DNA of 64,000 nucleotides from Gammaproteobacteria bacterium (lineage in GTDB: Bacteria; Pseudomonadota; Gammaproteobacteria; Eutrophobiales; Eutrophobiaceae). Position 1 is the stretch's first letter. Every line of letters begins with the position of its first letter. This document shows, piece by piece, positions 1 to 8,344 of the stretch. The notes beneath the pieces were generated by a model. It ran no database searches. It was given only the letters and a program-made list of their open reading frames with translations, and had not been told where the DNA came from. The position numbers and the translations under genes are program-made. The stretch covers positions 928,001-992,000 of the forward strand of contig OZ250183.1 of assembly GCA_965238225.1 (NCBI GenBank), written 5' to 3'.

Positions 1-1
1 A

Positions 2-988
2 CGTGCTGAGGCGACTCGATTTGCTTATAAACTAAAACAAGCGCTTGACGATAGCAATGCATTTGGTGCGGTACGCGTTACACCGGACAAAACGGCATCA
101 GGTGATTTATACGTGCTTGGTAAGATTAAAGAATCAAACGGTAAAGACGTAAAGTTTGCGCTGAATGTTATAGATATAAGTAGTAAATCATGGCTTAATC
201 GTAGTTTAAAACATGAAGTGAGAGAATCTTTTTACAAGAATTACAGGAACAGAGGTACAGACCCCTATACTCCAGTTTTTGAGCAGGCAGCTGATGAAAT
301 TATTGCTGCATTAAAAAAGCGCGATCCTTCAGAACTGGCTGACCTCAAATATATTGCAGATTTAAGATTCGGGGCGAGTTTTAATGATGCCGTTTTTATG
401 GAATACATGAATACCGATGGCAAATATATCAAGTTAAGAAGTAAGCCAAGCGACGATGACCCAATGCTGCAACGCGTGACATCAATACGTGTGCGCGAAC
501 AATTATTCGTTGATAGCCTGCAGCAAAACTACGCATCTTTTTCACAAAATATGGACGAAAGCTACTCGAAATGGCAAGAAGCTAGTTTTACTGAAAATAA
601 ACTACACAGTGCAGCAAAAACGGACAGCATCATGAAAGGGCTGGGGGGCGCATTGCTTCTTGGCTTATCAATAGCTGTTGCTATAGCATCCAAAGATACT
701 GGCAGTGTTGGTGCTGAAACCGCGCTCGCAACTGCTGCTATAGGAGGAGGTCTTGCTGGCGCATGGATGTTATCAGGTAGTTTCAAGTCTAAAGAAGAAG
801 CAAAATTACATAAAGATGCCATTAACGAGCTAGGAGAATCAATGAATGCCGATCTGGCTCCACGTGTAATATCTTTTGAGAATGAAACGATAGAATTAAC
901 TGGCAATATGCAAGAACAGTTCACTCAATGGAGAGGATTTCTTAAACGTATTTATAATCAAGAAGCAACCCCTGACACAGCTTTATAA
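2..988 (+). CDS. Hypothetical envelope protein, 5'-truncated by the window edge, with a glycine-rich hydrophobic hairpin near the C-terminus
   Basis: The frame of ORF 113..988 is open back to position 2 (RAEATRFAYKLKQALDDSNAFGAVRVTP...). Hydrophobic segments GLGGALLLGLSIAVAIAS and ALATAAIGGGLAGAWML. First visible gene of a tightly packed operon. Confidence 0.75.
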   Translation, partial: RAEATRFAYKLKQALDDSNAFGAVRVTPDKTASGDLYVLGKIKESNGKDVKFALNVIDISSKSWLNRSLKHEVRESFYKNYRNRGTDPYTPVFEQAADEIIAALKKRDPSELADLKYIADLRFGASFNDAVFMEYMNTDGKYIKLRSKPSDDDPMLQRVTSIRVREQLFVDSLQQNYASFSQNMDESYSKWQEASFTENKLHSAAKTDSIMKGLGGALLLGLSIAVAIASKDTGSVGAETALATAAIGGGLAGAWMLSGSFKSKEEAKLHKDAINELGESMNADLAPRVISFENETIELTGNMQEQFTQWRGFLKRIYNQEATPDTAL

Positions 989-1005: not shown

Positions 1006-2487
1006 ATGCTTGAGCAAAAACTCGCTGAAGTTAAGGCAAGCCAGCGCAAGAAATTTATCAATTTGTCTATTGGCTTTGTTGTAACCATACTGGTTTGCAG
1101 TGCGATTTTTATTATTGTTTCCTATTTCCAAGCACAGCCTGAAGTGGCTAAATCGATTTCTCCAAGCCCCGTTAAAGAAATAGAAGAAACCACTGCGCAA
1201 GCTGGCTTGGGAAAATCCCCATCAAGATCACTCGATGCCTTACAGGCAATGGACGATGAAGGACTGCGCCAGCGATACATAGATATTCTGAATGATTTTG
1301 AAAAAACTATTAAACCGCAACTTAATAAAATTGATCTAAACAAGCGGGATAAATCTCGTTTAAATCATCTTGCGATGTTAGAAGAACAAGCGCTTGCAAA
1401 ATTTAGCATTGCTGATTATGCGCAGGCATTAAATTATATTGAAGAATTAAAGCAGCTTGCCGAGGCAATTATCTTTGCTAGCGAAAAGCAATTTGAAGAG
1501 GCATTCTCTAATGCGCAGGAGGCATTTAATGCAGATAATTACGACGATGCCAGATTTTTTATAGATAACGCATTAATGCTCAACAATCAATCCGAAGATG
1601 CAGTTCATCTGTCAAATAAAATAGATGATCTGTCTGAAATTTTACCGCTACTTAGAAAAGTAAATATCGTCAGAGTCGAAAATAACCATGAGAAAGAACT
1701 TAAGCTTATAAAACATATCCTTAAATTAAACCCAAAACGAGAGTCGTCCATCGGGCGCAGGCATGAATTGGAAGGCATCATTAACAGGAAAAATTTCAAG
1801 TCATATGTTATTCAATCTTATAAAGCTATAGAGAAAGCTAATGTAAAAAAAGCAAAACAAAGCCTCAGAAAAGCAGGAAATATTTATCCTAATCGTCCAG
1901 AAATTACAGATATTACAATAGCACTACAGGCGCTTGAGAAAGATCAAAACTTTAAGAAGTATCAGCAGGCAGCACAAGCGGCAATAACATCTGATGATTG
2001 GGAAACGGCAAAACAACAATTGGAGTTGGCTCTGCAAGAACGAGCCAATGATAAATTAATTCAAGAATCACTAGCTGATGCGACAATGATTGTTTTTTTG
2101 CAAAACGATCTTGATAAACACATAGCCAATCCATATCGTTTGTCGAACAAACCGGTTTTGTCTACTGCAAAGTCTAAAATCTCAAAAGCTAAACCATTCA
2201 TTGATATGAGCTTATCACTGAAGAATAAAATAGAAACCTTATCTGGGCTTATCGAGAGCATGAACAAAAAAATTAATGTGGAGATTCTCTCTGATAACCA
2301 AACAAATATAATCGTTCGCAGGGTGGGTGTCGTTGGTAGAATACAATCAAAAACGATTCAACTGGCACCTGGGCATTATAAATTTGAAGGTAAACGAGAA
2401 GGCTTTAAATCAAAATTAATAGATGTGTTCATTTCCCATGAAGAAACAGATCATCAATTAAGCATTATTTGTGATGAATCCATTTGA
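1006..2487 (+). CDS. Membrane-anchored helical (TPR-like) protein with a C-terminal PEGA-like beta domain
   Basis: 493 aa. One N-terminal TM (FINLSIGFVVTILVCSAIFIIVSYF), TPR-like helices (ADYAQALNYI, DNYDDARFFIDNAL, DDWETAKQQLELAL) and a C-terminal beta segment (SDNQTNIIV...LAPGHYKFEGKREGF). Confidence 0.65.
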   Translation: MLEQKLAEVKASQRKKFINLSIGFVVTILVCSAIFIIVSYFQAQPEVAKSISPSPVKEIEETTAQAGLGKSPSRSLDALQAMDDEGLRQRYIDILNDFEKTIKPQLNKIDLNKRDKSRLNHLAMLEEQALAKFSIADYAQALNYIEELKQLAEAIIFASEKQFEEAFSNAQEAFNADNYDDARFFIDNALMLNNQSEDAVHLSNKIDDLSEILPLLRKVNIVRVENNHEKELKLIKHILKLNPKRESSIGRRHELEGIINRKNFKSYVIQSYKAIEKANVKKAKQSLRKAGNIYPNRPEITDITIALQALEKDQNFKKYQQAAQAAITSDDWETAKQQLELALQERANDKLIQESLADATMIVFLQNDLDKHIANPYRLSNKPVLSTAKSKISKAKPFIDMSLSLKNKIETLSGLIESMNKKINVEILSDNQTNIIVRRVGVVGRIQSKTIQLAPGHYKFEGKREGFKSKLIDVFISHEETDHQLSIICDESI

Positions 2488-4480
2488 TCAAAAAATACAT
2501 GTGGCAAAGAAAAAACAACGCCTGTTTTATATCAGGGTATTTGTATCACTACTAATAAGTGCGGTTATTATTTTAATGATTATCCTCGCCTCACGAGGCA
2601 CACGCATTGAAGTGAAACCTGATGATGCCGCCATACAAGCATCCATACATATAAATGCAGGGGTTGCCATGGTGATTGGTGAAACACTTTATTCAATATT
2701 AAACAATCCAGCTATTGCTGTTTCAGCAGAAGGCTTCCATACAAAGACGCAAGTGCTGGATAATAACGACTTTGGTAAAGTCATGCGTATTACTCTGAAA
2801 CCACTGCCTGCAATAGTAGAACTTGGCACAAACATTGACGATGATAAAACAGGCTGGATCATTGATGGTAAAACACTCGCTACTGGAAATATTTTTAAAT
2901 ATGAATTGCCCGCAGGTATTTACAAGCTCACCGTGATGCATCCTCATTATCATATAAAAACCGTGCCGCTATCTTTAATACGAGGTGAAACCTTCAAGAA
3001 AATCATTGAAGGTACCCCTATAGACGGCACGATAACCGTCAATACCAAGCCAAGTGGTGCCAGTGTATCAGTCAATACTGTTAAGAAGGGACTGACACCG
3101 ATCACTTTGACCGTACAAGGCGGTTATCATGATGTCATTGTTGCACACGACAAATATGAAAATATTAATGACACGATTGAAATCAGCCGCGCCACATCTG
3201 AGGTTCATCGAGATTATGTATTAGAGTTAAAAAAGACAAAGGTTGGTGTCACTTTAAAACCTGCTGGTGGAAAATTAAGTCTGGACGGTATCATACTCAA
3301 AGAAACAGACAATATCACTGTTGCAACAGGCATCAAGCATCGACTAACTTATTCTAAACAAGGTTATTTCACAAAAAGTGAAACCTTTAATATAACAGCT
3401 CGCGATACCTTGCTTTTATACTTTGAATTGACAAAAGAAATGGGAATGGTTGATATTGAATCAACACCAGAAGCTGAGGTTACATTGAACGGCGAGCCCA
3501 TGGGCACAACGCCGTTGCAATTATCCTTGCATGCTGTTCCCCAAGATATCACCCTGAGCAAACCGAAATATCGCAGTGTTACAAAGACTATTATTCCAAA
3601 GGCAGCGAGTAGCAAGAAAATTAGCGTAACCTTAACCTCTGAACTAACCGCGCGACTCAAAGAAGCACCCAAGCTATACACCAATAAAGCCGGCGGCAGA
3701 TTAAAACTATTTACACCAAATGATACTTTCACAATGGGGGCAAAGCGCAGTGAACCCGGTCAACGGATAAACGAGTTTATAAAAGAAATTAAACTTACTA
3801 GGCCATTTTATGCAGGCGTTTATGAAGTTACAAATGCGCAATACAGCCAATATGACAAGAGCAGGCAAGGTGACCCCGAAAAGCCAGTTACTTCTGTATC
3901 ATGGACAGATGCGGCCGGATTTTGTAACTGGCTTAGCCTGTCGGAGGGCTTAGAACCCGTTTACCATATTATAAATAACCGGCTGCAAAATATAAATACA
4001 AATATTGATGGCTATCGTTTGTTGACCGAAGCTGAATGGGAATGGTTAGTCAGAAAATCTGGCAAGTCGGCGCAAACTACATTTGTGTGGGGTGATGAGC
4101 GTACCATACCAAAGGGTGCTGTTAATATTGCAGATGAATCGGCCAAGGGCAAGGTCGAGAATATAGTGTCAAAATATAATGATGCTTATGCAGAGGCGGC
4201 ACCAGTGGGAAGTCTCGCACAGGAAAAATCTGGACTCTATGACCAAGGTGGTAATGTGAGTGAATGGACACATGATAGCTACTCGATAGTGCCGCCTAAA
4301 TCAGGTAAAGTGCTTCAAGACCCATTTGATTCGGCCATGGGCAATACCCATGTGGTTAAGGGAGCAAGCTGGCGCTCAGGCTCTATTACTAAGCTTCGAG
4401 CATCATTCAAGGACGGTTTAAACGATCCTCGGGATGATCTTGGTTTTAGGATTGGACGATATATCTATGCAGGAAATTAA
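2471..4480 (+). CDS. PEGA-repeat protein with a C-terminal FGE-sulfatase (SUMF1/EgtB/PvdO-type) domain
   Basis: N-terminal TM. PEGA motifs (TKPSGASVSVN..KGLTP; ESTPEAEVTLNGEPMGTTP). FGE-fold motifs FTMG, YEVTNAQY, PVTSVSW, RLLTEAEWE, GLYDQGGNVSEW, KGASW, GFRI. Confidence 0.85.
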   Translation: MMNPFDQKIHVAKKKQRLFYIRVFVSLLISAVIILMIILASRGTRIEVKPDDAAIQASIHINAGVAMVIGETLYSILNNPAIAVSAEGFHTKTQVLDNNDFGKVMRITLKPLPAIVELGTNIDDDKTGWIIDGKTLATGNIFKYELPAGIYKLTVMHPHYHIKTVPLSLIRGETFKKIIEGTPIDGTITVNTKPSGASVSVNTVKKGLTPITLTVQGGYHDVIVAHDKYENINDTIEISRATSEVHRDYVLELKKTKVGVTLKPAGGKLSLDGIILKETDNITVATGIKHRLTYSKQGYFTKSETFNITARDTLLLYFELTKEMGMVDIESTPEAEVTLNGEPMGTTPLQLSLHAVPQDITLSKPKYRSVTKTIIPKAASSKKISVTLTSELTARLKEAPKLYTNKAGGRLKLFTPNDTFTMGAKRSEPGQRINEFIKEIKLTRPFYAGVYEVTNAQYSQYDKSRQGDPEKPVTSVSWTDAAGFCNWLSLSEGLEPVYHIINNRLQNINTNIDGYRLLTEAEWEWLVRKSGKSAQTTFVWGDERTIPKGAVNIADESAKGKVENIVSKYNDAYAEAAPVGSLAQEKSGLYDQGGNVSEWTHDSYSIVPPKSGKVLQDPFDSAMGNTHVVKGASWRSGSITKLRASFKDGLNDPRDDLGFRIGRYIYAGN

Positions 4481-4644: not shown

Positions 4645-5394
4645 ATGATTAAAAATTTTATTGCGCTGGTTCTCTCTATCATCATCGTACATATGGTTTA
4701 CATTGGTTATGTGCGCCCTAAAGCCAATACATTAATAGAAATGGCCGAGCAACAAGGTCGGCAATCTGTATCCAGAAGTGTGGTGGTTATTGTGAAAGAT
4801 TATGAACAGGAAATCTGTTTCATCTTGATGTTCTGGGGCTTCTTCCTTGTTGCAAATAGTTATCGAGAAATATTAAAAACCAAACACTTGTTCTCGGTTG
4901 ATATGATTGAGGGTAAAGACAAAGACAGCGTGGATGTCGATAGTATTATCAAAAAATTGGACGAACAAATTCCGCAAGATTGTTTGTCGTCACCACTTGT
5001 CCAGACATTACGCTCATCGTTATGGCGATATTCAGCAACAAGAAACGTACAAAACTTATCTGATGCAATTGAAAGCAATCTTAACGCATTAGCCGCGAGA
5101 CAAGATTCTGAAAACACCATGATCCGTTATTTGATATGGGTGATTCCGTCCATCGGTTTTATCGGTACGGTACGTGGTATCGGGCAGGCATTATCCGCAG
5201 CAGACCAAGCGCTTGCTGGCGATATATCGGCAATGACAAATAGTCTCGGTGTTGCGTTTAATTCAACACTGGTTGCACTGCTGATTAGTATTTTTTTGAT
5301 GTTTCTTTTTCATCAATTACAAAGGCTGCAAGATAGTCAAATACTTGATACACAAGAATATTGTGAAAAATATTTACTCAGGCGTATAAGGTAG
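4645..5394 (+). CDS. MotA/TolQ/ExbB proton-channel family protein
   Basis: Motifs IPSIGFIGTVRGIGQAL and SLGVAFNSTLVALL match the last two TM helices of ExbB/TolQ/MotA. Confidence 0.9.
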   Translation: MIKNFIALVLSIIIVHMVYIGYVRPKANTLIEMAEQQGRQSVSRSVVVIVKDYEQEICFILMFWGFFLVANSYREILKTKHLFSVDMIEGKDKDSVDVDSIIKKLDEQIPQDCLSSPLVQTLRSSLWRYSATRNVQNLSDAIESNLNALAARQDSENTMIRYLIWVIPSIGFIGTVRGIGQALSAADQALAGDISAMTNSLGVAFNSTLVALLISIFLMFLFHQLQRLQDSQILDTQEYCEKYLLRRIR

Positions 5395-5404
5395 CTTCTC
5401 AGGA

Positions 5405-6466
5405 TTGGGCCAACGTAAGCAATCGGAAGGATTTAATCTCGCTTTTCTCGATATTATGTCGTGTGGTCTCGGCGCTGTCGTTCTTGTGTTTATGTTGGTA
5501 AAGCACAACATTAATGACTCTTCAGTTGAGCTTAAAAATCTTGAAAATGATATTCAAAATTTCGAAGTAATAAAACAAGATTCCATCCAGTTTTTGCAAA
5601 AAATTGAGACACAGATTTCTGAAGAAAGTTCGCAGGCAGAAGCGATCAAGAAAAAGCTTGCCAAGCTACAATCAGTTTTGACGAATAAGAATACCAATAT
5701 TGGAAAAATATCCAGAGAAATAGAAAGCCTTAAATCTAATATTGTAGATATAGAAATTGGAAAGAAAGAAGATTTAGTAGAAACCGAACAGGTTAATGAA
5801 GAAAATTATCTGTTGGGCCTTAAGGTTGAGGGACAAAAAATTGCGATTTTGTTAGATAGCAGCGCATCAATGACAAACGAAAAATTGATCGACATTATTA
5901 AAACTAAAAATAGTTCTAAAAAAGATAAACAACAGGCAGACAAATGGGTCAGAACAAAAAAGATTGTAGCGTGGTTGTTGGCACGTTTACCTAAAAACAG
6001 TGATATAGTTGTTGTGACCTTTAATGAAAAGGCGAAGATATTAGGTAAGCAAGGATGGATGAAAGCGATCGATCCATTAGGTTTGTCCTCAATCTTGTCT
6101 GATTTGAACAAACTGGTTCCCGAGGGTGGTACGAACCTTCAATCTGGACTACGCATGGCAAACAAATATTCACCGTCGAATTTATATCTTATCACTGATG
6201 GCTTGCCGACTAAGGGTGAGTCACGTTACAAAAACCTGAACCCATTTGCGAGCTGCAATTCTCTGCTGGGCACTTCAAACACGATTTCGGGCGAGTGTCG
6301 GATAAAACTGTTTAAGAAAACTATTGCTGAAAGTAAACAAGAAGGTGTTCAAATAAACGTTGTGTTATTACCTGTTGAAGGTGATCCTGATGCGGTAAAT
6401 CAGTATTGGTATTGGTCGGCATCAACAGGAGGATTGGTGATTAGCCCCGCGAATAATTGGCCATGA
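5405..6466 (+). CDS. vWA-domain protein with an N-terminal ExbD/TolR-like TM and a coiled coil
   Basis: TM FNLAFLDIMSCGLGAVVLVFML containing Asp, then a coiled coil. MIDAS elements DSSAS, GGTNL, ITDG. Confidence 0.85.
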   Translation: MGQRKQSEGFNLAFLDIMSCGLGAVVLVFMLVKHNINDSSVELKNLENDIQNFEVIKQDSIQFLQKIETQISEESSQAEAIKKKLAKLQSVLTNKNTNIGKISREIESLKSNIVDIEIGKKEDLVETEQVNEENYLLGLKVEGQKIAILLDSSASMTNEKLIDIIKTKNSSKKDKQQADKWVRTKKIVAWLLARLPKNSDIVVVTFNEKAKILGKQGWMKAIDPLGLSSILSDLNKLVPEGGTNLQSGLRMANKYSPSNLYLITDGLPTKGESRYKNLNPFASCNSLLGTSNTISGECRIKLFKKTIAESKQEGVQINVVLLPVEGDPDAVNQYWYWSASTGGLVISPANNWP

Positions 6467-7413
6467 AACTACGTAAACGAGCATTCGACATCTTTAATCT
6501 ATCATTCTTGGATATCATTTCATGTGGATTCGGTGCCGTAGTAATGTTAGTGCTGATTTCAAAACCATATGATAATATTTCAATTACAGGACAAGAAGAA
6601 ATCAAAGATTTATTAAAAACAGTTATCACACTTAAAAATACAATTTTCGAAATGGAACAAACTATAGGAAGTCAATCTTTAAAGGCGAGAAAATTATCAA
6701 ATAAAAATAAACAGCTGGAAATAACTGCAAATCAACTTGAGCGTAAAATACAGAATCAAGAAAAGCAACAAACATCACTTGCTGATGATCTACAAGGTTT
6801 AGCACTGGTTCAATCGACGTTGAAGAAGGCATCACTTTCAATTCAAGAATCGATTAATACGATGCGTGATGAGGAAGTAGGAGGGATTCCTGTTGATAGT
6901 GATTACCTTATCTTCATTGTCGATACATCTGGCAGTATGCGACAGATATGGAACCGTGTTTCTTCGGAGATTATAAATGTCTTGAATATTCATCCAGAGG
7001 TGAAGGGCTTTCAGATATTAAATGACATGGGTAGGTCGCTGGTATCTGGATACGATGGCAAATGGATGTCGGATACTCCCAAAAGAAGGAAGAGTGTAAT
7101 CAATATATTCGATAGCTGGGCAGAGATGTCAAACAGCAGTCCAGTAGAAGGTATCGAGACAGCACTACGAAAATATGCAAAAAAAGATATAACAACATCA
7201 ATCTATGTATTTGGTGATGATTATACAGGTTCATCTTATGACTCTGTTATTGAGAAAATAACCAAACAAAATAATTTAACTGGCACTAAAAACAGGTTCG
7301 CCAAGATTCACGGTATCGGTTTTATTTCGCCAGGGGCAACAGACCAATTTGGTATATTGATGCGTGAGTTGACAAAACAAAACGGCGGGACATTTCTAGC
7401 CTTGCCACTTTAG
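6463..7413 (+). CDS. Second vWA-domain protein with an N-terminal ExbD/TolR-like TM and a coiled coil
   Basis: ATGA overlap with the previous stop. TM FNLSFLDIISCGFGAVVMLVLI, a coiled coil, MIDAS DTSGS and FGDD. Confidence 0.85.
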   Translation: MKLRKRAFDIFNLSFLDIISCGFGAVVMLVLISKPYDNISITGQEEIKDLLKTVITLKNTIFEMEQTIGSQSLKARKLSNKNKQLEITANQLERKIQNQEKQQTSLADDLQGLALVQSTLKKASLSIQESINTMRDEEVGGIPVDSDYLIFIVDTSGSMRQIWNRVSSEIINVLNIHPEVKGFQILNDMGRSLVSGYDGKWMSDTPKRRKSVINIFDSWAEMSNSSPVEGIETALRKYAKKDITTSIYVFGDDYTGSSYDSVIEKITKQNNLTGTKNRFAKIHGIGFISPGATDQFGILMRELTKQNGGTFLALPL

Positions 7414-7891: not shown

Positions 7892-8344
7892 ATGAACAGT
7901 AGAAAACAGCACAGGCAGAATAATCATCAACAGGGTTTTTCCATGATAGAGCTGATGGTAGTAGTTGCGATCGTTGGCATTATGGCCTCAGTCGCGCTGC
8001 CAACCTATCAAAATTATACCGAAAAAACTCAGCTAGCGGCGGTTTCATCAGAGCTTGCAAGCGCCAAAAAAGCGTATCATATAATCAAAGCTGCGGGAGA
8101 GGAACCACAGTCTCTCCGAGATCAAGACAACTGGATTGGCGTGAATATTGAATCTGACTCCGGTGCATGCTGGATGCAGATCCACTTATCCCCAACAATA
8201 GACTTATCGTGCCGTATCAATAAAGGGCACTTTAAGGGAGCATACATTTATTTAGATTATGATTCTAATCCTCCTTGGAATTGTAGTTTTGAAGGCACAC
8301 CACTCATACCCAGTGATCTTCAAAAGTATGTGACCGCCTGCTAG
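7892..8344 (+). CDS. Type IVa pilin-like protein
   Basis: Prepilin cleavage/methylation motif QG|[28 protein letters not shown]-terminal cysteines, and a GGAGG RBS at about 7881. Confidence 0.9.

What the first reader, a model, noticed from the sequence alone, without database searches (positions are those of the whole stretch)
5405..7413. Two paralogous ExbD-like subunits with a coiled-coil stalk and vWA/MIDAS head instead of the usual periplasmic domain
Seen: both proteins start with a near-identical TM, FNL(A/S)FLDI(M/I)SCG(L/F)GAVV, with an Asp placed like the essential Asp of ExbD/TolR/MotB. A long coiled coil and a vWA domain follow (DSSAS..T..DG in one, DTSGS..DD in the other). Inference: a heterodimeric central pair that couples ion flux to a metal-dependent ligand-gripping head, which could pull on or rotate a periplasmic partner. 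The shared TM Cys is also notable.
Basis: partly seen in the sequence, partly recalled or inferred. Interest (0 to 1): 0.7.

Follow-up and report, generated by a model that had tools for sequence, protein, structure and literature searches.

The report
vWA-headed axle pair of proton motor
Two neighbouring genes encode membrane proteins with an aspartate-bearing helix, a long coiled coil and a metal-binding vWA head that most likely replace ExbD/TolR inside a TolQ/ExbB-like proton channel; a 2025 paper already predicted this motor type by computer, and its job in the cell is untested.

Summary
Window 5405-6466 (vwaA, 353 aa) and 6457-7413 (vwaB, 318 aa) are true paralogues (profile-profile E 6e-31). 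Both have a near-identical N-terminal helix (FNLxFLDIxSCGxGAVV), a roughly 76-residue coiled coil and a vWA domain with a MIDAS motif. The helix Asp is present in 131 of 132 diverse vwaA relatives and the Cys in 136 of 141. Both are invariant in 25 of 25 vwaB sequences.

The gene just upstream is a TolQ/ExbB-fold protein. It is the only one of five such genes in this genome with no ExbD beside it. In 400 sampled gammaproteobacterial genomes it occurs in exactly the same 36 genomes as the vWA pair.

A fold of vwaA with vwaB passed its controls (0.79 against 0.00). It gave a parallel coiled coil with joined heads.

Sequence homology of the helix to ExbD or MotB could not be shown. HMM and HMM-HMM tests were not significant.

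The design is already in print as an in-silico prediction ('TPH-vWA' with TolQ-like motors, Mol Biol Evol 2025, PMC12204202). This scan has also noted it on at least ten other genomes. This copy is therefore a new member of a predicted, untested kind. It sits in a conserved seven-gene envelope operon of unknown function.

The parts
1..988 (+). g1: 415-aa lipoprotein (lipobox LAGC) with a C-terminal glycine-zipper-like stretch. Its start lies 260 bases upstream of the window. A 219-aa secreted acidic protein (g0) precedes it, outside the window.
   Evidence: No Pfam family. Homologue upstream in 21 of 24 related loci; g0 in 20 of 24.
1006..2487 (+). g2: membrane-anchored helical/TPR-like protein. 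In some relatives it is fused to an N-terminal Ser/Thr kinase.
   Evidence: TPR_14 weak, E 0.0096. Present in 20 of 24 loci. Pkinase E 1.5e-27 in the L088 copy.
2471..4480 (+). g3: membrane-anchored PEGA repeats plus a C-terminal FGE-sulfatase-fold (GldK-like) domain.
   Evidence: Pfam FGE-sulfatase E 2.3e-32, PEGA E 1e-27. NCBIfam GldK E 3.4e-20, far below its cut-off. Present in 23 of 24 loci.
4645..5394 (+). g4: TolQ/ExbB/MotA-family channel subunit, the presumed pentamer. Invariant P168, G171, G174, T175, N206 and T208 in its last two membrane helices.
   Evidence: Pfam MotA_ExbB E 1.3e-15. AF2 pLDDT 88.7. The top Foldseek hits listed are all 5:2-motor pentamer subunits: TolQ and ExbB first (TM up to 0.61/0.67), then PomA, ZorA and MotA. 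Conservation. It is the only one of 5 such genes in the genome without an adjacent ExbD.
5405..6466 (+). vwaA (353 aa): short basic N-terminus, Asp16/Cys20 membrane helix, coiled coil, vWA domain with full MIDAS (D151, S153, S155, T243, D265).
5432..5503 (+). vwaA membrane helix (residues 10-33). Asp16 codon at 5450-5452, Cys20 codon at 5462-5464.
5519..5746 (+). vwaA stalk helix (residues 39-114), predicted to pair in parallel with vwaB residues 45-122.
5837..6463 (+). vwaA vWA head (residues 145-353). The conserved C-terminal tail (P348, W352, P353) is predicted to contact the vwaB C-terminus.
6457..7413 (+). vwaB (318 aa from the TTG, or 316 aa from the ATG at 6463, which overlaps the vwaA stop as ATGA): Asp19/Cys23 helix, coiled coil, and a vWA domain with D156, S158, S160, S227 and D254.
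6589..6822 (+). vwaB stalk helix (residues 45-122).

Best explanation
vwaA and vwaB form a 1:1 heterodimer that takes the place of the ExbD/TolR/MotB dimer inside a pentamer of the TolQ/ExbB-like protein g4.

Proposed working, all inferred:
- Their N-terminal helices lie side by side in the pentamer's pore.
- Each helix presents an Asp near the cytoplasmic end to the invariant Thr residues of g4.
- Proton flow through this site turns or ratchets the pair relative to the pentamer.
- The motion passes up a parallel coiled coil of about 11 nm to two joined vWA heads.
- The MIDAS sites of the heads hold an acidic residue of a periplasmic or outer-membrane partner, most likely another product of the same operon.

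Shown here: paralogy, motif conservation, the vWA fold, the TolQ/ExbB fold of g4, orphan status and strict co-occurrence of g4 with the pair, and a predicted heterodimer that passed controls.
For: (1) g4 belongs to the MotA/ExbB family (Pfam E 1.3e-15). Its AF2 model matches TolQ and ExbB chains best.

(2) The genome has 5 MotA_ExbB genes and 3 ExbD genes. Each ExbD sits beside its own TolQ/ExbB, there is no MotB_plug match, and g4 is the one left without a partner.

(3) My ExbD HMM found nothing in any of 24 related loci.

(4) In 400 sampled genomes of the class, vwaA (E<=1e-5) and full-length g4 (E<=1.8e-45) occur in the same 36 genomes and in none of the other 364. The count is 35 of 399 without the unpublished G039.

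(5) The Asp is present in 131 of 132 vwaA relatives and 25 of 25 vwaB.

(6) The commonest count of uncharged residues after the Asp before the next charge is 17 (92 of 130 vwaA). It is 16-17 in 17 of 30 ExbD and 20 in 18 of 23 MotB.

(7) g4 keeps invariant Thr175 and Thr208 in G-T-V and N-S-T motifs. These align with the Thr-bearing motifs of MotA in the PDB alignment.

(8) Co-fold of vwaA with vwaB: score 0.79, best of 3 controls 0.00. That mark was reached by 116 of 157 solved complexes and 2 of 215 mismatched pairs. The runs agree in at least 68% of contacts and the partner pLDDT is at least 74. The interface is a heptad-spaced parallel coiled coil plus C-terminal head-to-head contacts. My own alignments were used, so the calibration holds only roughly.

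(9) The pair is adjacent in 24 of 24 loci. The vwaB ATG overlaps the vwaA stop. Stalk lengths of the two paralogues co-vary (r 0.83, n 24, kin not independent).

(10) An independent paper reached the same model with AF3 for this gene arrangement (PMC12204202, section 8 and the Fig. 4 legend read).
Against: No sequence method links the helix to ExbD, TolR or MotB:
- The vWA N-terminal HMM did not rank the three ExbD/TolR genes among its top 15 of 4301 own-genome ORFs, and the reverse search also failed.
- hhalign gave Prob 3-4%. Its score was reached by 7 of 200 and 8 of 200 column shuffles, and nearly reached by the reversed ExbD alignment.
- No ExbD or MotB_plug family was among the 25 Pfam families most often hit by 122 members at E<=10.

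Other points against:
- The membrane helices were not among the confident contacts of the heterodimer fold.
- The 5:2 assembly could not be folded here because of the chain limit.
- The co-fold cannot tell a heterodimer from two homodimers.
- In 1 of 24 fetched loci g4 was not in the stretch; in that genome (G302), and in G204, which was not fetched, g4 lies on another contig.
- One representative has Ala at the Asp position.
- There is no experiment in print and no RNA evidence.
Confidence: 0.7

Rival explanations
1. The two proteins are only membrane-anchored vWA scaffolds, like BatA/BatB. Their helix is an anchor and dimerisation element that does not enter g4, and g4 works alone or with an ExbD/TolR encoded elsewhere.
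For: No detectable sequence homology of the helix to ExbD or MotB. BatB is among the structural matches of the head (rank 24). The small-residue motif S/A-C-G-x-G-A could be a plain helix-packing motif.
Against: An anchor would not keep an invariant membrane Asp and a motif of about 12 residues across clusters down to about 30% identity. All three ExbD genes have their own partner. Co-occurrence with g4 is 36 of 36 and 0 of 364. No MoxR or DUF58 neighbours appear, unlike Bat operons.
Confidence: 0.15
2. They act like TolA/TonB. The helix binds the outside of the g4 pentamer, and force is passed on while an unidentified small protein fills the pore.
For: The same 2025 paper describes a different vWA family that does this. 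Long stalks and distal binding domains resemble TolA.
Against: Neither helix has a His or the S-H-L-S pattern that marks TolA/TonB (direct reading). No ExbD-like ORF lies in 24 loci. TolA/TonB helices carry no conserved Asp; this last point is recalled, not tested.
Confidence: 0.07
3. The N-termini are cleaved signal peptides, and the proteins are soluble periplasmic or secreted vWA dimers.
For: The N-terminus has a basic start followed by a hydrophobic stretch. 24 of 126 relatives have a small-x-small pattern near the end of the stretch.
Against: The uncharged span is 25-40 residues (mean 28.4), much longer than a signal-peptide core. The sequence is nearly invariant, 102 of 126 lack any small-x-small pattern, and the AF2 helix runs 12-33. 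No signal-peptide predictor was available.
Confidence: 0.03

Closest known systems
'TPH-vWA' proteins with TolQ-like motors, predicted in silico (Mol Biol Evol 2025;42(6):msaf138, PMC12204202, section 8, Fig. 4c-d)
   Same: Membrane-tethered vWA proteins directly beside a tolQ-like gene, with no tolR/exbD. They occur as a heterologous pair, have a conserved Asp in the helix and no SHLS/His motif, and the pentamer protein has conserved Thr residues. They are found in Proteobacteria and Verrucomicrobia; one relative cluster here is named Opitutae.
   Different: Nothing in kind. The paper's query was an Idiomarina protein that I could not compare by sequence. In the section I read, the paper does not describe the other five conserved genes of the operon, and it reports no experiment. 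Its supplementary figure S1.7 was not seen.
ExbB-ExbD and TolQ-TolR 5:2 motors
   Same: The g4 model matches TolQ/ExbB chains best. The partner has a short basic N-terminus and one helix with an Asp near the cytoplasmic end, with 17 uncharged residues after it against 16-17 in ExbD. Gene order is channel gene, then partner.
   Different: There is no ExbD periplasmic domain. Spacing from Asn to Asp is one residue shorter and lacks the Pro. There are two diverged partners instead of one. The stalk and binding head are part of the pore subunit itself, so no separate TonB/TolA is needed. Sequence homology is not demonstrable.
GldL-GldM (PorL-PorM) motor of the type IX secretion system, with the GldK/GldN ring (recalled, apart from the GldK profile hit)
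   Same: A pentamer surrounds a dimer whose long periplasmic part reaches a distal assembly. The operon holds an FGE-sulfatase-fold protein that matches the GldK profile (E 3.4e-20).
   Different: There is no GldL/GldM sequence match. The stalk is a coiled coil rather than stacked domains. The charged pore residue is an Asp on the inner pair. g3 is anchored by a helix and scores far below the GldK cut-off (72.7 against 350 bits).
MotA-MotB / PomA-PomB flagellar stators and ZorA-ZorB
   Same: hhalign at low stringency aligns F-L-D-x-M-S with Y-A-D-F-x-T of MotB without gaps, Asp on Asp. MotA and ZorA are the two best PDB sequence matches of g4 (E 0.27 and 0.91).
   Different: No MotB_plug, OmpA-like or peptidoglycan-binding domain. 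This genome has no MotB_plug match. Only weak ZorA hits appear in PADLOC (E 8.6e-5).
BatA/BatB membrane-anchored vWA pair of the Bacteroides aerotolerance operon
   Same: Two paralogous helix-anchored vWA proteins with TPR partners. BatB is a structural match of the head.
   Different: Bat operons carry MoxR and DUF58 and no MotA/ExbB gene (recalled). Bat proteins are not known to have the Asp/Cys helix motif or the coiled coil (recalled).

Membership tests
ExbD/TolR (Pfam PF02472) | Match to the ExbD profile (periplasmic ExbD fold) | tested here: not met
   No hit at E<=0.1 for either protein. ExbD is not among the 25 families most often hit by 122 members at E<=10.
ExbD/TolR (Pfam PF02472) | Single N-terminal helix with a conserved Asp near its cytoplasmic end | tested here: met
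   Asp in 131 of 132 vwaA relatives and 25 of 25 vwaB. Commonest count of uncharged residues after the Asp is 17, against 16-17 in ExbD.
ExbD/TolR (Pfam PF02472) | Detectable homology of the helix region (HMM or HMM-HMM) | tested here: inconclusive
   HMM searches both ways were negative. hhalign gave Prob 3-4% with Asp aligned to Asp only at mact 0.05. Shuffles reached the score 8 of 200 (ExbD) and 7 of 200 (MotB).
ExbD/TolR (Pfam PF02472) | Gene directly beside a MotA/ExbB/TolQ-family gene | tested here: met
   g4 ends 10 bases before vwaA. g4 lies in the stretch in 23 of 24 loci.
ExbD/TolR (Pfam PF02472) | Sits as a dimer in the pore of the pentamer | not testable with these tools
   A 5:2 co-fold needs 7 chains and the tool takes 6. 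Only the vwaA-vwaB dimer was folded.
MotB (MotB_plug PF13677 plus OmpA-like domain) | Match to the MotB_plug profile and a peptidoglycan-binding domain | tested here: not met
   No hit. The C-terminal domain is vWA.
TPH-vWA / TolQ-like motor (PMC12204202) | Membrane-tethered vWA next to a tolQ-like gene, with no tolR/exbD in the cluster | tested here: met
   My ExbD HMM gave 0 hits in 24 loci.
TPH-vWA / TolQ-like motor (PMC12204202) | Heterologous pair of vWA genes | tested here: met
   Both paralogues are adjacent in 24 of 24 loci. Profile-profile E 6e-31 at 18% identity.
TPH-vWA / TolQ-like motor (PMC12204202) | Conserved Asp in the helix, no SHLS/His motif, and conserved Thr residues in the pentamer protein | tested here: met
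   No His in either helix. T175 and T208 are invariant in 24 g4 sequences.
TPH-vWA / TolQ-like motor (PMC12204202) | Sequence relationship to the paper's Idiomarina query | not tested
Membership rests on matching the paper's description.
vWA domain with MIDAS | D-x-S-x-S, Thr and Asp metal-site residues on a vWA fold | tested here: met
   vwaA: 146/147, 147/147, 146/146, 138 T plus 8 S of 146, and 146/146; fold. vwaB: D156, S158, S160 and D254 invariant, with invariant S227 at the Thr position by profile alignment. The vwaB Pfam hit is below the cut-off (E 0.038). No separate model of vwaB alone was made and no fold search was run on it.
BatA/BatB aerotolerance vWA proteins | Operon with MoxR ATPase and DUF58 | tested here: not met
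   None of the seven own-operon products matches these (and for g0 and g1). Neighbours in the 24 loci are g0-g4.
TolA/TonB-type force transducers | S-H-L-S helix motif with the essential His | tested here: not met
   The helices read FNLAFLDIMSCGLGAVVLVFMLV and FNLSFLDIISCGFGAVVMLVLI, with no His.

The most novel reading that the evidence does not exclude
The pair is the rotating axle of a so far undescribed trans-envelope machine encoded by the whole conserved cassette. The parts are a secreted acidic protein, an outer-membrane lipoprotein, a TPR protein, a PEGA plus catalytically dead FGE-fold protein, the TolQ-like pentamer and the two vWA proteins.

In this reading the joined MIDAS heads grip an acidic residue of the lipoprotein or the acidic protein. 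Proton-driven motion then remodels or tensions the outer membrane or cell wall, in the way of Tol-Pal or the type IX GldLM-GldKN pair. In the longer form of the cassette, this activity would be switched by a Ser/Thr kinase and an FHA protein.
Probability: 0.25. Interest if true: 0.75.

Novelty: new member of a known kind. Interest (0 to 1): 0.4.

Why it matters
Ion-driven 5:2 motors power flagella, TonB-dependent uptake, Tol-Pal, gliding with type IX secretion, and Zorya defence. A further class whose pore subunits themselves carry a stalk and a metal-dependent binding head would be a compact, self-contained force transducer. It occurred in about 9% of the sampled gammaproteobacterial genomes, including this small 1.7 Mb one, so it probably does something important for the envelope.

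Its function, ligand and even its assembly are untested. The operon is small and well defined: seven genes here, with no kinase or FHA layer. That makes this short form a convenient minimal version for reconstitution.

Tried and rejected
Sequence link to ExbD or MotB:
- HMM searches both ways over 4301 own-genome ORFs found nothing.
- hhalign local at default settings gave a 9-column alignment that missed the Asp. Permissive settings plus shuffles were not significant.
- BLASTP of g4 against the genome's own TolQ gave E 7. Family membership of g4 rests on Pfam and on its fold instead.

Other searches:
- PADLOC gave only weak ZorA-like hits for g4 and coiled-coil noise for the vWA proteins, so I did not file the operon as a defence system.
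- The search for related loci in genome contigs gave only 4 close loci.
- The ESM Atlas look-up of a g1 homologue returned only unnamed clusters.
- Sequencing runs: no RNA holder listed.
- The listing of cluster members on 10 distant representatives gave names for only one cluster, Opitutae.

Not done:
- A 5:2 co-fold was not possible because of the chain limit.
- A 4:1:1 ring was considered and rejected as unphysical.
- A check for a genomic island was not pursued. GC content (0.36-0.42) does not stand out from its neighbours.

Literature:
- Two full-text searches found no paper on this system other than PMC12204202. One search used exbb, vwa, pega, fge-sulfatase and mota, at least 3 of 5, and returned 11 papers. 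One search used transpore helix, vwa and tolq, at least 2 of 3, and returned 10 papers.
- The other papers were seen only as listings and abstract starts.
Full report
WHAT IS THERE

The window's first 7.4 kb carries one plus-strand operon. Reading upstream in the genome, it starts with a 219-aa secreted acidic protein (g0, outside the window). Next is a 415-aa lipoprotein (g1) with lipobox LAGC, whose start lies 260 bases before the window.

The remaining genes are:
- g2 (1006-2487): helix-anchored, TPR-like.
- g3 (2471-4480): helix-anchored, PEGA repeats plus an FGE-sulfatase fold. Pfam E 2.3e-32 and 1e-27. The GldK profile matches at E 3.4e-20, far below its cut-off.
- g4 (4645-5394): MotA_ExbB, E 1.3e-15.
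- vwaA (5405-6466) and vwaB (6457-7413): the two genes of the finding.

The vwaB ATG at 6463 overlaps the vwaA stop as ATGA. A type IV pilin gene and the nuo operon follow.

THE OBSERVATION

It is correct in every point. The helices read FNLAFLDIMSCGLGAVV and FNLSFLDIISCGFGAVV. The two proteins are paralogues over their whole length:
- BLASTP gives E 2e-8.
- Profile-profile comparison gives Prob 99.85%, E 6.2e-31 over 282 columns.

The family is large. There are 1564 proteins at E<=1e-3 among 6847 candidates in the 90% clusters. Among 50% cluster representatives, 864 score E<=1e-3 and 207 score E<=1e-30.

I aligned the 150 listed representatives plus self without selecting on the motif:
- Asp16: D in 131, A in 1, no residue in 19 (short N-termini).
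- Cys20: C in 136 of 141.
- The five MIDAS positions are kept in 146/147, 147/147, 146/146, 146/146 (138 Thr, 8 Ser) and 146/146.

An earlier count was circular, because my filter demanded the Asp, so I do not use it.

In 25 vwaB sequences, F17, L18, D19, C23, G26, A27, D156, S158, S160 and D254 are invariant. The profile alignment puts invariant S227 at the place of the MIDAS Thr, so both heads may bind metal.

AF2 on a 122-row alignment gives vwaA a mean pLDDT of 88.7. It has helix 12-33, one helix 39-114, a linker, and a domain 145-353. That domain's best solved matches are vWA domains: ITIH1, CLCA1, CMG2 and BatB, with E about 1e-7.

IS THE HELIX ExbD-LIKE?

By sequence statistics this cannot be shown.
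- Pfam and NCBIfam give no ExbD or MotB_plug hit.
- Neither family is among the 25 most often hit when 122 members are scanned at E<=10.
- A 42-residue HMM of the vWA N-terminus, run over all 4301 ORFs of the genome, finds the two vWA proteins and then noise. The three real ExbD/TolR genes are not in its top 15.
- The reverse search with an ExbD N-terminal HMM does not find the vWA proteins.
- hhalign gives Prob 3-4%.
- Only at a permissive setting does it put Asp on Asp, ungapped against MotB and with two gaps against ExbD.
- Column-shuffled templates reach the real score in 7 of 200 (MotB) and 8 of 200 (ExbD) trials. The reversed ExbD alignment scores almost as high.

What is alike is the geometry. 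The N-terminus is basic, with mean net charge +2.5 before the Asp. The Asp lies 7-12 residues after the last charged residue. The commonest count of uncharged residues after it is 17 (92 of 130), against 16-17 in ExbD and 20 in MotB.

The uncharged span is 25-40 residues (mean 28.4) and nearly invariant in sequence. That speaks against a cleaved signal peptide, although no dedicated predictor was available.

CONTEXT

The genome is one contig of 1.72 Mb. It has five MotA_ExbB genes and three ExbD genes. The three ExbD genes sit in a TolQ-TolR-TolA-TolB cluster, an ExbB-ExbB-ExbD-TonB cluster and an ExbB-ExbD cluster. No MotB_plug match exists. g4 is therefore the only family member without a conventional partner.

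The AF2 model of g4 (pLDDT 88.7) matches TolQ and ExbB chains best (TM up to 0.61/0.67). PomA, ZorA and MotA follow. These Foldseek E-values are 2e-3 or weaker, so the Pfam hit is the firmer evidence.

In 24 g4 sequences, P168, G171, G174, T175, N206 and T208 are invariant. These lie in the G-x-G-T-V and N-S-T motifs of the last two helices. Those motifs align with the Thr-bearing motifs of MotA in the PDB alignment.

CO-OCCURRENCE

In 400 scored genomes drawn across the class, vwaA has a match at E<=1e-5 in 36, covering 30 of 321 genera. A full-length g4 match at E<=1.8e-45 occurs in exactly the same 36. Ten further genomes have only partial hits, at E 1e-22 to 3e-11, to the C-terminal half; I read these as other family members. 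One of the 36, G039, is unpublished; without it the count is 35 of 399.

In a phylum-wide sample, 19 of 401 genomes match, including 15 from one family of another class. One distant cluster is named Opitutae.

NEIGHBOURHOODS

I fetched 15-16 kb around 20 of the 35 other matching genomes, chosen for long contigs and a spread of similarity. The other 15 were not fetched. I added the 4 MAG loci.
- vwaA and vwaB are adjacent in 24 of 24 loci.
- g4 lies in the stretch in 23 of 24. It comes after vwaB in one, and in G302 it sits on another contig.
- g3 is present in 23, g2 in 20, g1 in 21 and g0 in 20.
- My ExbD HMM hits nothing in any of the 24.

Thirteen loci have a gap of 0.9 kb or more upstream of vwaA: between g4 and vwaA in 11, and in L090 and L092 after g3, because g4 lies elsewhere there. 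An extra ORF of 303-464 aa fills the gap in 12 of them. One of three copies scanned has a C-terminal FHA domain (E 2.3e-11). In the same locus g2 carries an N-terminal protein kinase (E 1.5e-27). The window has the short form, without these.

THE PAIR

A co-fold of vwaA with vwaB, each with a 25-row alignment of my own, scored 0.79 (three runs: 0.81, 0.79, 0.79). The best of three controls scored 0.00. That mark was reached by 116 of 157 solved complexes and 2 of 215 mismatched pairs. The runs agree in at least 68% of contacts, and the partner pLDDT is at least 74.

The confident interface has two parts:
- A parallel coiled coil with heptad spacing, vwaA 39-116 on vwaB 45-122.
- A head-to-head contact of the C-terminal tails, vwaA 338-352 on vwaB 310-318. 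This includes the nearly invariant P348, W352 and P353 of vwaA.

The model supports binding but does not show it. It cannot tell A:B from A:A plus B:B, and the membrane helices are not among the confident contacts.

The distance from the helix Asp to the MIDAS Asp is 134-156 residues in vwaA and 131-146 in vwaB. The two co-vary across genomes (r 0.83, n 24, kin not independent).

MECHANISM

Most likely, at about 0.7, the pair fills the pore of a g4 pentamer as ExbD, TolR and MotB do in their motors. Protonation of the two Asp residues against the Thr residues of g4 would drive stepwise motion. The coiled coil would carry that motion to the joined MIDAS heads. A helix of 76 residues is roughly 11 nm (inference).

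What the heads hold is unknown. The operon's own lipoprotein, acidic secreted protein or PEGA/FGE-fold protein are the obvious candidates (inference).

The Cys lies four residues after the Asp, on the same helix face, inside an S/A-C-G-x-G-A run of small residues. Its role is unexplained; it may serve packing of the two helices or the proton path.

WHAT IS KNOWN

A full-text search led to Mol Biol Evol 2025;42(6):msaf138 (PMC12204202). I read its section 8 with the Fig. 4 legend, plus passages. It describes exactly this arrangement:
- helix-tethered vWA proteins tightly linked to tolQ homologues without tolR/exbD;
- mostly in heterologous pairs;
- a conserved Asp, and AF3 models with a Thr ring;
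- found in Proteobacteria and Verrucomicrobia;
- no experiments.

I did not see its supplementary AF3 figure. A second search found no other paper. Earlier notes of this scan record the same system on at least ten other genomes, all citing that paper and several noting the larger operon. I reached the paper before reading them, and my results agree with them.

VERDICT

This is a real and well-conserved feature.

New here are:
- the negative outcome of the HMM-HMM test;
- the one-to-one co-occurrence count;
- the heterodimer fold with controls;
- the fact that this small genome carries the minimal seven-gene form.

It is a new member of a known, though only predicted, kind.

Noticed in passing
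L080-L093 (e.g. L088:8627-9994, L086:8625-9986); absent from the window between 5394 and 5405: Thirteen of 24 related loci have a gap of 0.9 kb or more upstream of vwaA, and an extra cytoplasmic-looking ORF of 303-464 aa fills it in 12. It lies between the channel gene and vwaA in most, and after g3 in L090 and L092. The L088 copy ends in an FHA domain (E 2.3e-11); two other copies have no Pfam hit. The window has the short form without this gene.
   Followed up: partly
L088:2490-4976 (homologue of window 1006-2487): In some relatives the TPR protein g2 carries an N-terminal Ser/Thr protein kinase domain (Pkinase E 1.5e-27). Together with the FHA protein, this suggests phospho-signalling control of the long form of the cassette.
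   Followed up: partly
window 2471-4480 (C-terminal end): The FGE-sulfatase-fold domain of g3 ends in ...GFRIGRY. It lacks the Cys that, as I recall, follows GFR in active formylglycine-generating enzymes, so it is probably a binding domain and not an enzyme, like GldK. Conservation was not checked.
   Followed up: no
L013:9085-9744 and L013:9741 to window 988: The operon really begins outside the window. It starts with a 219-aa signal-peptide-bearing, very acidic protein whose stop overlaps the start of the 415-aa lipoprotein g1. Both are conserved upstream in 20 and 21 of 24 loci.
   Followed up: partly
window 7892-8344: A type IV pilin / pseudopilin gene (N_methyl E 4.7e-9) lies 480 bases downstream of vwaB, before the nuo operon. 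It has no homologue in the four close loci checked, so it is probably unrelated.
   Followed up: no
window 5462-5464 and 6523-6525: The membrane Cys, four residues after the Asp, is kept in 136 of 141 vwaA relatives and 25 of 25 vwaB. It lies within a run of small residues (S/A-C-G-x-G-A). No explanation was tested.
   Followed up: partly
G302 (L092) and G204: In two of the 36 carrier genomes the channel gene g4 lies on a different contig from the vWA pair. In G302 the pair's contig is 58 kb long, so the genes are truly unlinked there.
   Followed up: no
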